A stretch of DNA of 64,000 nucleotides from Escherichia coli (lineage in GTDB: Bacteria; Pseudomonadota; Gammaproteobacteria; Enterobacterales; Enterobacteriaceae), in the NCBI RefSeq assembly GCF_016026235.1, contig NZ_CP065613.1, one strand, 5' to 3'. Below, in pieces: positions 3,001 to 6,000 of the stretch. The position numbers are program-made. Each line of letters starts with the position of its first letter. The first letter of the stretch is position 1.

Positions 3001-6000
3001 AATGAAACACGCCAGTTCGCCCGGATGTTGGGACTTGAACCGAAGAACACGGCGGTGCGGAGTCCGGAGAGTAACGGAATAGCAGAGAGCTTCGTGAAAA
3101 CGATAAAGCGTGACTACATCAGTATCATGCCCAAACCAGACGGGTTAACGGCAGCAAAGAACCTTGCAGAGGCGTTCGAGCATTATAACGAATGGCATCC
3201 GCATAGTGCGCTGGGTTATCGCTCGCCACGGGAATATCTGCGGCAGCGGGCTTGTAATGGGTTAAGTGATAACAGATGTCTGGAAATATAGGGGCAAATC
3301 CAGCAATCGCATGCAGGGTCTTTGAACTGCGTTGTTCATAACGGGCAATCTCACTGAAACTCATGCCCTGCATCAGAATCTTAAGCACGCTCAACTCCCG
3401 TGCAGTCAGGAGCCAGAAATCGCTCATATCGCCGGGCAAAGGACGTAGTAACCAGCGGATAATTTGATTCTGATAACGACTCGCTGTCAGCATGGTGCCG
3501 ATGCGTGGGAAGCCGTTATACAGACTTGCAGCAGGAGCATTATCGAACCAGTCGGAGTCACCGGTCAGGCAGACCTGCCATTGCCCGGCATCACTCCGCA
3601 AGCGGACAAGACAAGCCAGAAGAACTAACTCCCCCGAAGGAAGCGAAGGGATATCAGCCAACAGATAGCCACAGGAGGTTTTTAAAACGAATTCAACCTC
3701 TGTAGTGACGTTGCTGTACACCCGCACGATATACCTGTCCGTTGGGATGAGAGACTCCAGTGCCAGCCTGGTGAACTGACAGGCACTGATAATAACCAGA
3801 GGCTTCTTCATTCAGACTCGTCCACGCCATTGCTACAAAACCTGACATTTTGAATCAGAAGGTACTGTTTTAACGAGGCTTTTTTTTCCACACCCCTTTA
3901 AATCGAGCAGCATTACTGGCTGTGTATCTGACAGTATGCTGGATATTTCGATGACCCAGATAATCCTGGAGTAGTCGGGTATCGACACCATTGTCAGCCA
4001 GAGCAAAACCACAGGCATGACGTAACATATGAGGATGTGCTTTTACAGCTAATCCTGCACGTTTTCCAGCCTCACGAATGATAGAAAAAAATGTTGTCTG
4101 CTGATAGGGCGGCGTTTCCGGGAGAGAAAAAGCCAGTCTCCTTCAACTCCGTTTTCAATTAACTTCCTCTGCTTAAGCCACGACTTGATCAAATTATATT
4201 CATCAGGAAGAAGAGGATGTGTCGTCGAGAAACCATTTTTAATACGCCGAATATTAAGTTGTTTTCCTGATGCATCAATATCGGATAAACGTAAATCAAG
4301 AAGTTCACTGGCCCTAAAACCGTGAATGAAAGCCATCATAATTAGACAGCGATTTCTTTCAGGAAAGGACATGCTCTGGGCTGCATCCATCAGCCTGTAG
4401 ACTTCATCCTGTGTGAGATATTTTCTCGTCATACGCCACCGTGTACAGTTGTAAAAAAAAGAGGCACACCCAGATAAGTATGCCTGCCATCAGAACGTTA
4501 TCGATGTAATCTCATTATTTCATTAATAAGATTTTTTGAATAGTAGTTCTACGCAACAGATTAAATATGAACTATTTATTGTGCAGCTTTTCTACAAATC
4601 ATTTTTAATGCGTGTTTTTATCTACATTGATGTGAAAAAATAAATATAAAAGCTATGAGCGACAGGTCGTGTGGGATGTGTGTTACGTCTAATGTTTTAG
4701 TTGTTTTTATTAGTTTGAGATATTTGACATTATTTCTTGCGAGAACGCTTTATTGTGTATCTAATTGATTTTTCTTTTGTTTTTGGTTGGTGAAATTATA
4801 AGGTAGAAGGTGAGATTAGTTTAATATCAATGATATGAATTTATAAATACATATTATTGCAAGGTGTTCTTTAATTTTCTGGTCGTGAGTAAACCATTGT
4901 TAATGAACTCTGCTAATAAATTAAAAATGTTCTTTTGAATAGCTTTTGTTTTTTTGTAAACCTCAGTTTGTTTATTTTGCATTCGTTTGCTGGAGAGTAT
5001 TTCAACAATTTTTATTTTTCGCATAAACTTATTAACAACTTTTTATTATCAATTGGAAATCAATGTAAACTAAAATGTTAGCGAAGCGATAATCTTGTGC
5101 TAAAAAATATTTAAGCATGATGATTAATTAAAGAAGAGTAAAAATAAATCACTGCTAATAAATTATACGAATCGTGTTTAAAGCTCCACGTTGTTTTGGT
5201 CTGACTTATTTTTGTCCTCGTTTCAAGAACCCTTTTCGTATATGCTAACCGTGAGCGGGAGTGAACAAGTCACCATAGCCAGGAACACTAGCGGCGTAAT
5301 TCTTAAGCTGAGTGGCATTTCACCTGCGGTTTATCAGTGCATTCATAGCACCTTCATCAGCCAGATTGAACGAGTCCGCTTAGAATTTGCTGGCGAGGTT
5401 GTCACTATGAAGCATGAGAGTTACCTCAGTGTTTATATAAGGATTCAGCCCCCCTCTCTGGAACGGTAACTCTCAATCTGATCGGTTCCTGCGTTAGTTC
5501 ACATCACGACTCATTTTTTCGCTCTCACCGGCATCCCATTTGCCACAAAATATCCCGCCGTGCTCCTTGGCAGCGCTTCCTGTCCACGAATCATGTCCGC
5601 TATTTTCTCGCCAATCATAATTGTCGTGGCGTTCAAATTGCCGGTGATAATCTGCGGCATAATTGACGCATCCACCACGCGTAGGCCTTCCAGCCCATGC
5701 ACGCGGCCTTCGCCGTCAACCACGGACATCTCGTCGTAGCCCATTTTGCAGGTACCGCACGGATGGAAGGCGGTTTCGGCGTGATTACGCACGAACTCAT
5801 CGAGCTGCTCATCCGTCTGACATTCCGTGCCGGGGCTGATTTCGCGGCCACGATACTGATCCAGCGCCGGTTGATGCATGATCTCGCGGGTGATGCGAAT
5901 TGCGTCGCGGAACTCCTGCCAGTCCTGCTCGTGCGACATGTAGTTAAACAGAATCGCCGGATGCTGGTGCGGGTCGCGGGATTTAATCCGCACATGCCCA

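What the first reader, a model, noticed from the sequence alone, without database searches (positions are those of the whole stretch)
5191..5469. Orphan 92-aa ORF between the AT-rich region and betA
This plus-strand ORF (TTG start) sits in a short segment of ordinary base composition that is not otherwise assigned. It may be a small gene or the remnant of a gene lost when the recombinase island was acquired.
Basis: seen in the sequence. Interest (0 to 1): 0.2.

Follow-up and report, generated by a model that had tools for sequence, protein, structure and literature searches.

The report
Antisense shadow ORF over IS481 relic
The 92-codon reading frame exists, but it is most likely not a gene: it is the empty opposite-strand frame of a decayed insertion-sequence (IS481-family) fragment lying between the FimX/IpbA island and betA in E. 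coli, so it is ordinary.

Summary
The ORF (5191..5469, +, TTG, 92 aa) is present as described. It is the ORF once annotated as Z0397, the last ORF of O-island 14 / PAI-X in E. coli O157:H7 EDL933. RefSeq no longer annotates it. It has no Shine-Dalgarno sequence, no predicted promoter, no domain, and no homolog outside Escherichia. Its start codon and C-terminal frame differ between E. coli haplotypes. Its dN/dS (0.3-0.75) matches the off-frame controls, against 0.05 for neighbouring betA and ipbA. An ORF this long is expected about 24 times per 64 kb of similar sequence.

The segment of ordinary base composition is a decayed IS481-family insertion-sequence relic on the minus strand. Window 5353-5479 matches the transposase-proximal end of annotated IS481-family elements on about 250 plasmids (76-78%, E down to 2e-18). 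The relic transposase starts at 5415-5413 (MLHSDN... against MLHTNN...). The plus-strand ORF is its codon-aligned antisense frame, and it ends at the same TAA as that frame does in the intact IS.

K-12 keeps only the outer ~110 bp of the relic. The island-free ykgH-betA site therefore looks like a deletion scar, not a virgin site.

Interest is low. There is a small residual chance that Z0397 is a translated young orphan protein.

The parts
5191..5469 (+). The 92-codon ORF of the finding (TTG start, TAA stop). Residues 19-75 are antisense to relic transposase codons. Residues 76-92 are antisense to the IS 5' leader.
5242..5469 (+). The same frame from the internal ATG. This is the form annotated elsewhere as Z0397 (83 aa in EDL933) or NRG857_01520 (75 aa).
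5218..5516 (-). Decayed IS481-family insertion-sequence relic: the transposase 5' part, the leader and the outer terminal repeat. DNA homology is robust at 5325-5479. The inner limit is uncertain and could reach about 5130.
5413..5415 (-). Start codon of the relic transposase. The minus-strand frame reads MLHSDNLASKF*ADSFNLADEGAMNALINRR*..., with four in-frame stops.
5353..5364 (.). Single copy of the 12-bp repeat TTCATCAGCCAG. It marks an in-frame 81-bp deletion (transposase codons 18-44, the helix-turn-helix) relative to the intact IS.
5242..5251 (.). Single copy of the ATGCTAACCG repeat. It marks a 96-bp deletion relative to the long haplotype (E. coli STE15 type and Escherichia sp. MOD1-EC7003). 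The lost piece encodes transposase residues 92-109 and carries three stops in the plus-strand frame.
5406..5408 (.). TAT microhomology at the boundary where K-12-type genomes resume. To its left is DNA present only in island-bearing genomes. To its right is DNA shared by nearly all E. coli.
5415..5475 (.). 11-bp inverted repeat TGAGAGTTACC (5415-5425) / GGTAACTCTCA (5465-5475). It is conserved in the intact IS. The left arm abuts the transposase start codon and the right arm contains the ORF's TAA stop.
5490..5516 (.). Degenerate outer terminal inverted repeat of the IS relic. It matches 16/22 in fixed register and overlaps the betA stop codon (5511-5513).

Best explanation
The ORF is a non-genic 'shadow' reading frame. 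The stretch from about 5218 to about 5516 is a decayed fragment of an IS481-family insertion sequence lying on the minus strand, with its outer end at the betA stop codon. It retains a degenerate terminal repeat, the 5' leader with its 11-bp hairpin, and roughly the first 100 transposase codons. Those codons now carry four stops, an 81-bp deletion and, in this haplotype, a further 96-bp deletion.

The plus-strand ORF is the codon-for-codon antisense frame of that transposase remnant. This frame is naturally poor in stop codons. In the intact IS it is already open for 80 codons and ends at the same TAA. In the common E. coli haplotype the 96-bp deletion removed three in-frame stops and extended the frame upstream to a TTG or ATG.

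Shown here: the homology, the frame relation, the deletions, the lack of translation signals and the lack of frame-specific constraint. Inferred: that no protein is made.
For: IS identity:
- blastn of 5320-5520 against 7.3 Gb of plasmids finds about 250 records at 60-80% identity. The listed ones match query 34-160 (window 5353-5479) at 76-78%, with E from 1e-15 to 2e-18. Most lie under features annotated 'IS481 family transposase'.
- The comparator IS is L023 605-1806, with ~27-bp terminal repeats. Its transposase scores 287 bits on NF033577 against a cut-off of 224, and has HTH and rve domains.
- A second DNA piece, 5325-5364, matches at 87.5%.
- The minus-strand translation aligns to transposase residues 1-17 and 45-97 (39% over 54 aa). 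The long haplotype adds residues 92-109 (61%).
- In O157 the alignment runs to IS nucleotide 1199 of 1202. In the window the terminal repeat matches 16/22 in fixed register.

Frame relation:
- Plus-strand codon CAT 5413-5415 (His75) is the complement of the transposase ATG.
- In the intact IS the codon-aligned antisense frame has 7 stops, against 17 and 11 in the other two frames. Its 80-codon open stretch ends ...QNR*LS, at the homologous TAA.

Not a gene:
- Anti-SD pairing is -0.1 and -0.7 kcal/mol for the two candidate starts, against -2.6 to -11 for real genes in the window.
- No promoter is predicted upstream.
- Pfam, NCBIfam, PHROGs and PDB give nothing.
- All 43 hits among 5.8 billion proteins are at least 68% identical, and every source name is E. 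coli.
- A full HMMER scan of 1.84 billion representatives adds only repeat-protein noise, with hhalign probability 1%.
- A scan of one genome for each of 100,044 species finds one other locus, in an unclassified Escherichia.
- Pairwise dN/dS is 0.29-0.75 in the ORF frame and 0.17-0.84 off-frame. The controls are 0.02-0.07 for betA and 0.04-0.06 for ipbA.
- The start is TTG, or an ATG one codon upstream, or absent. The C-terminus changes frame through 1-nt indels. The STE15-type haplotype leaves only 57 codons.
- AlphaFold2 gives mean pLDDT 58.
- RefSeq annotates nothing here.
Against: - About 55-60 codons stay open in all 15 haplotypes sampled, although chance alone gives this with P of about 0.23.
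- Among the 13 short-form haplotypes, synonymous changes are in modest excess in the ORF frame: 13 of 27 against 29% expected, p = 0.03, omega about 0.45. Off-frame omega is 1.0-1.25. The signal vanishes when the long haplotypes are added (omega 0.76, p = 0.22).
- In-frame codon usage is better than in 98% of chance ORFs and similar to the island genes. A codon-aligned antisense frame of a former coding sequence would also be expected to look codon-like, by the reverse-complement symmetry of the RNY pattern (my own knowledge, not tested here).
- Several annotation pipelines have called the ORF.
- An EDL933 microarray detected a weak signal (log2 5.1, rising 2-fold in an rpoS mutant; PMC2907692).
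- The relic translation itself does not reach any transposase HMM, so the protein-level match rests on pairwise alignment. The DNA-level match carries the argument.
Confidence: 0.8

Rival explanations
1. Z0397 is a real, lineage-restricted small protein of about 75-100 aa. It would be translated from the internal ATG (5242) or from the TTG/ATG near 5191. It would have arisen de novo from the antisense strand of the IS relic and would be under weak selection.
For: The frame is open over about 55-60 codons in all 15 haplotypes. Short-form haplotypes show a marginal synonymous excess, p = 0.03. Codon usage resembles the island genes. AlphaFold2 gives pLDDT of about 70 for residues 15-55 in a beta-beta-beta-alpha arrangement. 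Some annotations call the ORF. A microarray shows a weak signal.
Against: There is no SD at either start and no predicted promoter. The start codon and the last 15-22 residues are not conserved, and a widespread haplotype keeps only 57 codons. dN/dS is indistinguishable from off-frame and about ten times that of the neighbouring genes. There are no homologs beyond the locus. Supplement text searches found nothing: the ORF sequence is absent from the Sakai novel-gene paper's supplements and Z0397 is absent from the EDL933 translatome paper's supplements (weak negatives). The microarray signal is near background.
Confidence: 0.1
2. The ORF is a pure chance frame in unassigned spacer DNA, with no relic of any gene beneath it.
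For: ORFs of this length are common by chance. The evolution is neutral-like.
Against: DNA homology to IS481-family ends is significant at database level. The stop codon and the frame are inherited from the intact IS. Codon statistics are non-random.
Confidence: 0.04
3. One reading: the ORF is the remnant of a backbone gene that was destroyed when the recombinase island inserted.
For: The ORF sits exactly at the island/backbone boundary.
Against: Island-free genomes have nothing homologous to 5191-5405 at this site or elsewhere; the segment occurs in 1,893 of 5,426 genomes, median one place per genome. The part they share, 5406 onward, is IS leader, not coding sequence of this frame. The relic is continuous in island-bearing strains and truncated in K-12, which is the opposite polarity to the one proposed.
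Confidence: 0.02
4. The segment acts as non-coding regulatory DNA or RNA. Possibilities are a distal control region of ipbA/fimX, by analogy with the long fimB upstream region, or the 3' UTR or terminator of the bet operon.
For: A block at 5070-5169 is 100% identical between haplotypes whose flanks differ by 6-19%. An 11-bp hairpin lies at 5415-5475.
Against: Rfam gives no match at E <= 1. Folding z-scores are 0.24, 0.79 and -0.39. No intrinsic terminator is predicted downstream of betA. The hairpin is an inherited IS feature. The ORF region itself is among the more diverged parts of the spacer, at 86-94% identity.
Confidence: 0.05

Closest known systems
Z0397, hypothetical protein of O-island 14 in E. 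coli O157:H7 EDL933 (also NRG857_01520 in O83:H1 NRG857C)
   Same: It is the same locus and the same frame. It is 94-99% identical over the first 78 residues, and it is the last ORF of OI-14 / PAI-X next to betA.
   Different: Z0397 was called from the internal ATG (83 aa). In O157 a 1-nt T insertion shifts the C-terminal frame to ...PYVLYNDSVPIPGTVTLNLIGS. The window has a K-12-type 3' part and ends ...LSVYIRIQPPSLER. RefSeq re-annotation no longer carries it.
IS481-family insertion sequences on enterobacterial plasmids (for example the 1.2-kb element in E. coli plasmid NZ_OY856300.1, locus L023 605-1806, transposase WP_125265101.1)
   Same: DNA identity is 78-81% over the leader and the first transposase codons. 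The start context ATGCTTCAT, the 11-bp hairpin and the terminal-repeat register are all the same.
   Different: The window has only about 300 bp of the 1.2-kb element. There is no DDE domain, there are four stops and two internal deletions, and only one end is present. It cannot transpose and it is not annotated.
Shadow ORFs: long open frames on the strand opposite a coding sequence, a well-known gene-finder false positive
   Same: The frame is codon-aligned antisense, stop-poor and codon-like in statistics, with no translation signals.
   Different: Here the sense gene is itself dead, so the shadow now stands alone in apparently intergenic DNA and looks like an orphan gene.
Experimentally supported antisense overlapping genes of EHEC (asa, pop, ano, laoB; PMC6294744, PMC7103648, PMC5960689, PMC5810103)
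   Same: They are young, taxonomically restricted ORFs antisense to another coding sequence in E. coli O157:H7.
   Different: According to their titles and abstracts, those ORFs have RNA-seq and Ribo-seq signals or regulated expression. None was found for this ORF.

Membership tests
IS481-family insertion sequence (as a relic, not a functional member) | Nucleotide homology to the end of elements annotated as, and scoring as, IS481 family | tested here: met
   Window 5353-5479 matches at 76-78% with E from 1e-15 to 2e-18 against the plasmid collection, in about 250 records. The comparator transposase scores 287 bits on NF033577, cut-off 224.
IS481-family insertion sequence (as a relic, not a functional member) | Intact transposase with an N-terminal HTH and a DDE (rve) domain | tested here: not met
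   Only about 100 decayed codons remain, with four stops and the HTH codons 18-44 deleted. The conceptual translations hit no NCBIfam model. It is therefore a fragment derived from such an element, not a member able to transpose.
IS481-family insertion sequence (as a relic, not a functional member) | Terminal inverted repeats at both ends | tested here: inconclusive
   The outer repeat is recognisable in register (16/22; in O157 the alignment reaches IS nucleotide 1199 of 1202). The inner end is missing.
IS481-family insertion sequence (as a relic, not a functional member) | Target-site duplication | not testable with these tools
   Only one end survives.
Protein-coding gene (small protein) | Translation initiation signals (start codon with a Shine-Dalgarno sequence) | tested here: not met
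   Anti-SD pairing is -0.1 kcal/mol at 5191 and -0.7 at 5242, against -2.6 to -11 for ten real starts. The start codon is not conserved.
Protein-coding gene (small protein) | Purifying selection specific to the frame | tested here: inconclusive
   Pairwise dN/dS is 0.29-0.75 in frame and 0.17-0.84 off-frame. Short haplotypes give p = 0.03 and all haplotypes give p = 0.22. The controls are 0.02-0.07.
Protein-coding gene (small protein) | Homologs or a recognised domain beyond the immediate lineage | tested here: not met
Protein-coding gene (small protein) | Evidence of transcription and translation | not testable with these tools
   The only evidence is a weak microarray signal in the literature. 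Supplement text searches were negative for the ORF sequence in the Sakai study and for Z0397 in the EDL933 translatome study.
PAI-X / O-island 14 (fimX-hyxRAB island between ykgH and betA) | Location between ipbA/fimX and betA, and co-occurrence with the island | tested here: met
   The segment is in 1,893 of 5,426 genomes. The ipbA-to-betA query is covered by at least 80% in 1,879 genomes. Synteny holds in L001-L022. OI-14 is given as Z0390-Z0397.
Structured non-coding RNA | Match to an Rfam family, or stability and covariation above background | tested here: not met
   Rfam gives no match at E <= 1. Folding z-scores are 0.24, 0.79 and -0.39.

The most novel reading that the evidence does not exclude
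Z0397 is a recently born, weakly selected small protein. It would have been created when deletions in a dead IS481 element opened and extended the antisense frame, giving a traceable case of de novo gene birth from an insertion-sequence relic inside the FimX/HyxR island.
Probability: 0.08. Interest if true: 0.5.

Novelty: new member of a known kind. Interest (0 to 1): 0.15.

Why it matters
There are three practical consequences.

1. It removes a recurrent false gene call. Z0397 and its dozens of 'hypothetical protein' entries can be explained, which justifies RefSeq's decision to drop it.

2. [quoted passage not shown]

3. As a by-product, the relic is continuous in PAI-X-positive strains but cut after transposase codon 3 in K-12. 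All island-free genomes sampled with substantial matches share one junction. This indicates that the 'empty' ykgH-betA site arose by a single deletion, not that it is the ancestral state. That bears on how PAI-X is read as a marker acquired by uropathogenic strains.

None of this changes our understanding of a biological mechanism.

Tried and rejected
- **Domain and structure searches of the 92-aa product.** Pfam, NCBIfam, PHROGs and PDB sequences gave nothing, or E > 0.1.
- **Distant homologs.** The full HMMER scan returned three large Ig-repeat or low-complexity proteins at E from 2e-6 to 8e-5. I rejected them as compositional: the matches come in many short stretches and hhalign gives probability 1%.
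- **Structured RNA or bet terminator.** Rfam and folding z-scores are negative.
- **AlphaFold2.** Confidence was low (pLDDT 58), so I did not run fold searches.
- **Phage collection, tblastn.** No match.
- **Ribosome-profiling literature.** Supplement text searches found neither the ORF sequence (Sakai study) nor Z0397 (EDL933 study). The supplements may not list sequences or all genes, so this is a weak negative.
- **Extending the IS relic leftward.** Transposase residues 175-191 align to the conserved AT-rich block at about 5130-5185 with p of about 0.03-0.05 in three loci. This is too weak to claim.
- **Codon usage as evidence for a gene.** I first read the coding-like codon usage that way. 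I reinterpreted it once the antisense relation to a former coding sequence was found.
- **The boundary at 5406.** I first read it as an island insertion point. I revised it to a deletion endpoint.
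Full report
**Observation.** The ORF is in the sequence exactly as described: 5191..5469, plus strand, TTG start, 92 codons, TAA stop. 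Its GC content is 0.46. It follows a stretch of GC 0.27-0.29 and ends 41 bp from the stop codon of betA (5511..7226, minus strand). Its length is not remarkable. Random sequence of the same composition gives about 24 ORFs of at least 92 aa per 64 kb, and about one 600-nt stretch in ten contains one.

**Context.** The window is E. coli. Upstream lie the genes of the PAI-X island, which is O-island 14 of O157:H7.
- hyxA is at 766..1527.
- hyxR is split by an IS2 at 1972..3302, with a GCAAT target duplication.
- ipbA (also called fimX or hbiF) is at 3870..4432 and carries a 1-nt deletion in an A-run after 4084.
- Downstream come betA, betB, betI and betT.

The literature describes PAI-X as four genes (fimX, hyxR, hyxA, hyxB) of about 4.9 kb between ykgH and betA, exclusive to E. 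coli (PMC3789825; PMC12928451). K-12 lacks the island, and its homology to the window resumes at 5406. The first 72 codons of the ORF therefore lie in DNA found only with the island, and the last 21 lie in DNA shared by nearly all E. coli. Segment 5150-5410 occurs in 1,893 of 5,426 complete genomes, with a median of one place per genome. RefSeq annotates nothing under it in any of 40 genomes spread over the ranking.

**Is it a gene?** The product has no Pfam, NCBIfam, PHROG or PDB relative.
- A search of 5.8 billion proteins found 43 hits. All are at least 68% identical and every source name is E. coli.
- A word-free HMMER scan of 1.84 billion representatives with a profile of nine variants added only three large repeat proteins. 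hhalign rates these at 1% probability.
- A tblastn-type scan of one genome for each of 100,044 species found one further locus, in an unclassified Escherichia.
- The exact-sequence look-up shows the ORF has been called before, as Z0397 in EDL933 (83 aa from the internal ATG at 5242), as NRG857_01520, and in many automatic 'hypothetical protein' entries.
- One microarray study lists Z0397 at log2 5.1, rising two-fold in an rpoS mutant (PMC2907692).
- Z0397 is counted among the 15 ORFs of the OI-14-15 segment that were each expressed in trans in the EhaF study (PMC10090168).

**Translation signals and frame stability.** Neither candidate start has a Shine-Dalgarno sequence. Anti-SD pairing is -0.1 and -0.7 kcal/mol, against -2.6 to -11 for ten genuine starts in the window. 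No sigma-70-like promoter is predicted upstream. I compared 15 distinct haplotypes from 20 loci.
- The start is TTG in some, an ATG one codon upstream in others, and lost in a third group.
- A 1-nt T-run indel near 5436 shifts the C-terminal frame, giving three different tails.
- The STE15-type haplotype has a 96-bp and a 2-bp indel with in-frame stops, leaving a 57-codon ORF. This type is common in public assemblies: its 57-aa product is indexed in 6,556 blocks of the collection.

**Selection.** Pairwise dN/dS in the ORF frame is 0.29-0.75, the same range as the two off-frame controls (0.17-0.84). For the same strain pairs betA gives 0.02-0.07 and ipbA 0.04-0.06. A mutation-spectrum-aware count gives a marginal synonymous excess among the 13 short-form haplotypes (13 of 27, p = 0.03, omega about 0.45). 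The excess disappears when the long haplotypes are included (p = 0.22). The chance that 48 mutations create no stop is 0.23. AlphaFold2 gives mean pLDDT 58.

One result pointed the other way. In-frame codon usage scores higher than in 98% of chance ORFs and is similar to ipbA, hyxA and hyxR. The signal is confined to the part left of 5406.

**What is really there.** tblastn of the ORF against plasmids gave weak hits (E about 2e-3) lying antisense to 'IS481 family transposase' genes. Following this at the DNA level settled the matter.
- Window 5353-5479 aligns at 78% over 128 nt, and 5325-5364 at 87.5%, to the transposase-proximal end of a 1.2-kb IS481-family element on E. coli plasmid NZ_OY856300.1 (L023 605-1806, ~27-bp terminal repeats).
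- Against the whole 7.3-Gb plasmid collection, about 250 records from Escherichia, Salmonella, Serratia, Klebsiella, Erwinia and others match the query at 60-80% identity. The listed ones cover 5353-5479 with E from 1e-15 to 2e-18, most under annotated IS481-family transposases.
- The comparator transposase passes NCBIfam NF033577 (287 bits, cut-off 224) and has HTH and rve domains.
- On the window's minus strand a single frame reads MLHSDNLASKF*ADSFNLADEGAMNALINRR*NATQLKNYAASVPGYGDLFTPAHG*... The intact protein reads MLHTNNPVIKHKAGLLNL...ADEGGVDALINRTRRTPNLKNRTDD...PAHGQH.
- The relic start codon is at 5415-5413.
- Codons 18-44 (the helix-turn-helix) are missing through an 81-bp deletion between TTCATCAGCCAG repeats.
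- The long haplotypes, and the Escherichia sp. locus, keep 96 bp more, encoding residues 92-109 (61% identical). The long form is therefore probably ancestral. The common form carries a deletion between ATGATAACCG and CTGCTAACCG repeats.
- Outward, the homology continues in fixed register into the terminal repeat (16/22). In O157 it reaches IS nucleotide 1199 of 1202, so the IS end overlaps the betA stop codon.

**Relation of the ORF to the relic.** Plus-strand codon 5413-5415 (CAT, His75) is the exact complement of the transposase ATG, so the ORF is the codon-aligned antisense frame. In the intact IS this frame has the fewest stops (7, against 17 and 11). It is open for 80 codons, ending ...QNR*LS at the TAA homologous to the ORF's stop. 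The 92-codon ORF is thus an inherited shadow frame. The 81-bp deletion shortened it by 27 codons. The 96-bp deletion removed three stops and lengthened it upstream.

This also offers an explanation for the codon-like statistics. The RNY-type periodicity of coding sequence is symmetric under reverse complementation (established knowledge, from memory, not tested here). It is why gene finders model 'shadow' states.

The 11-bp inverted repeat at 5415-5425 / 5465-5475 is likewise an IS feature conserved in the intact element. By analogy with other IS leaders it may once have limited transposase translation. That is inference and I did not test it.

**Consequence for the island boundary.** K-12 retains only IS nucleotides 1091-1164 at blastn level (83%, E 1e-13), that is the leader plus three transposase codons, and beyond them the degenerate terminal repeat, in which it is identical to the window. 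Island-bearing strains carry the relic uninterrupted across that point. The K-12 left flank equals the ykgH-side flank of the island in O157, and a TAT is present at both junctions. The island-free rows sampled with matches of 114-115 bp all begin at query position 1007, and one 33-bp match begins at 1089.

The simplest reading is one microhomology-mediated deletion that removed PAI-X together with the inner part of the relic.

**Comparison with what is known, and verdict.** As an ORF this is already known as Z0397, an uncharacterised and since-withdrawn call. As DNA it is an unannotated fragment of a well-known kind of element. I file it as derived from an IS481-family IS, not as a member. 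The defining transposase is not intact (tested, not met) and only one end survives.

The most novel reading still open is that the antisense frame has become a young translated orphan. I put that at about 8-10%. It needs Ribo-seq or tagging to test. Overall interest is low.

Noticed in passing
window 3839-3871 (compare L004 2166-2471, L003, L015): The hyxS phase switch is missing. Intact PAI-X loci carry a ~271-bp AT-rich element between hyxR and ipbA. It is flanked by AAAACCTGACATTTTGATTCAAAATGTCAGGTTT (itself a palindrome) and AATCTGACATTTTGAATCAGAAGGTACTGTTTT. The window has one hybrid site, AAAACCTGACATTTTGAATCAGAAGGTACTGTTTT, and nothing between. This looks like a site-specific excision at the FimX recombination sites (the name hyxS is from bioRxiv 10.1101/494401).
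   Followed up: partly
window 3870-4432 (-), A-run after 4084: ipbA/fimX is frameshifted by a 1-nt deletion (A7 instead of A8). Otherwise it is 98.8% identical to the intact gene, with dN/dS 0.04-0.06.
   Followed up: yes
window 1972-3302: A 1,331-bp IS2 (ends TAGACTGGCCCCCTGAATC... and ...GGGGCAAATCCA, with a 5-bp GCAAT duplication) splits hyxR into 1681-1971 and 3303-3811. Together with the two items above, the whole FimX-HyxR module is inactivated in this strain.
   Followed up: yes
window 5406-5516; K-12 locus L002 3001-3111: K-12 and the other island-free E. coli carry the outer ~110 bp of the IS481 relic next to betA. All island-free rows sampled with 114-115 bp matches share one junction. 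The 'empty' ykgH-betA site therefore looks like a single deletion scar with TAT microhomology, not the ancestral state.
   Followed up: partly
window 5511-5519: The betA stop codon lies inside the degenerate IS terminal repeat. The adjacent T-run is polymorphic (T6 or T7). With T7, BetA is annotated 6 residues longer (1,689 against 1,671 nt) and ends ...RAKKMSRDVN, reading into the relic.
   Followed up: partly
window 5070-5169: An AT-rich block is 100% identical between the window and TUM11352, while the flanks differ by 6-19%. It is nearly invariant in all haplotypes. Its minus-strand translation GALNTIRIIY*Q*FIFT weakly resembles transposase residues 175-191 (p about 0.04). The cause of the conservation is unexplained.
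   Followed up: partly
protein P0035 (metagenome): One variant of the ORF carries ...QNEQTGFVFDDGIGSMKHESY. The EQTGFVFDDGI core is identical to the antisense translation of the intact plasmid IS. This suggests a gene-conversion patch from a live IS copy into the chromosomal relic.
   Followed up: no
locus L015 (E. coli TUM13064) 2589-3800: An IS1 sits at the equivalent of window ~5238. The bet operon is absent and the next gene is pdeL. This is an IS1-associated deletion that starts inside the ORF region.
   Followed up: no
locus L017 (Escherichia sp. MOD1-EC7003) 1-1260: This is the only non-E. coli species representative with the segment. It has the long (96-bp-containing) form. It is cut at the equivalent of window ~5285 by another transposase-like ORF (157 aa, identity not tested) and is not followed by betA.
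   Followed up: partly
window ~4676-4810 (+): RefSeq annotates a different tiny 'hypothetical protein' (44 aa, WP_001356433.1, frameshifted in several strains) in the AT-rich spacer upstream of ipbA. I did not examine it.
   Followed up: no
window 11937-15986 (+): A 1,349-aa ORF with the repetitive sequence of an autotransporter adhesin (my reading of the translation) lies after betT. This is the position that the EhaF paper gives for the single O-island 15 gene, Z0402. No domain search was run.
   Followed up: no
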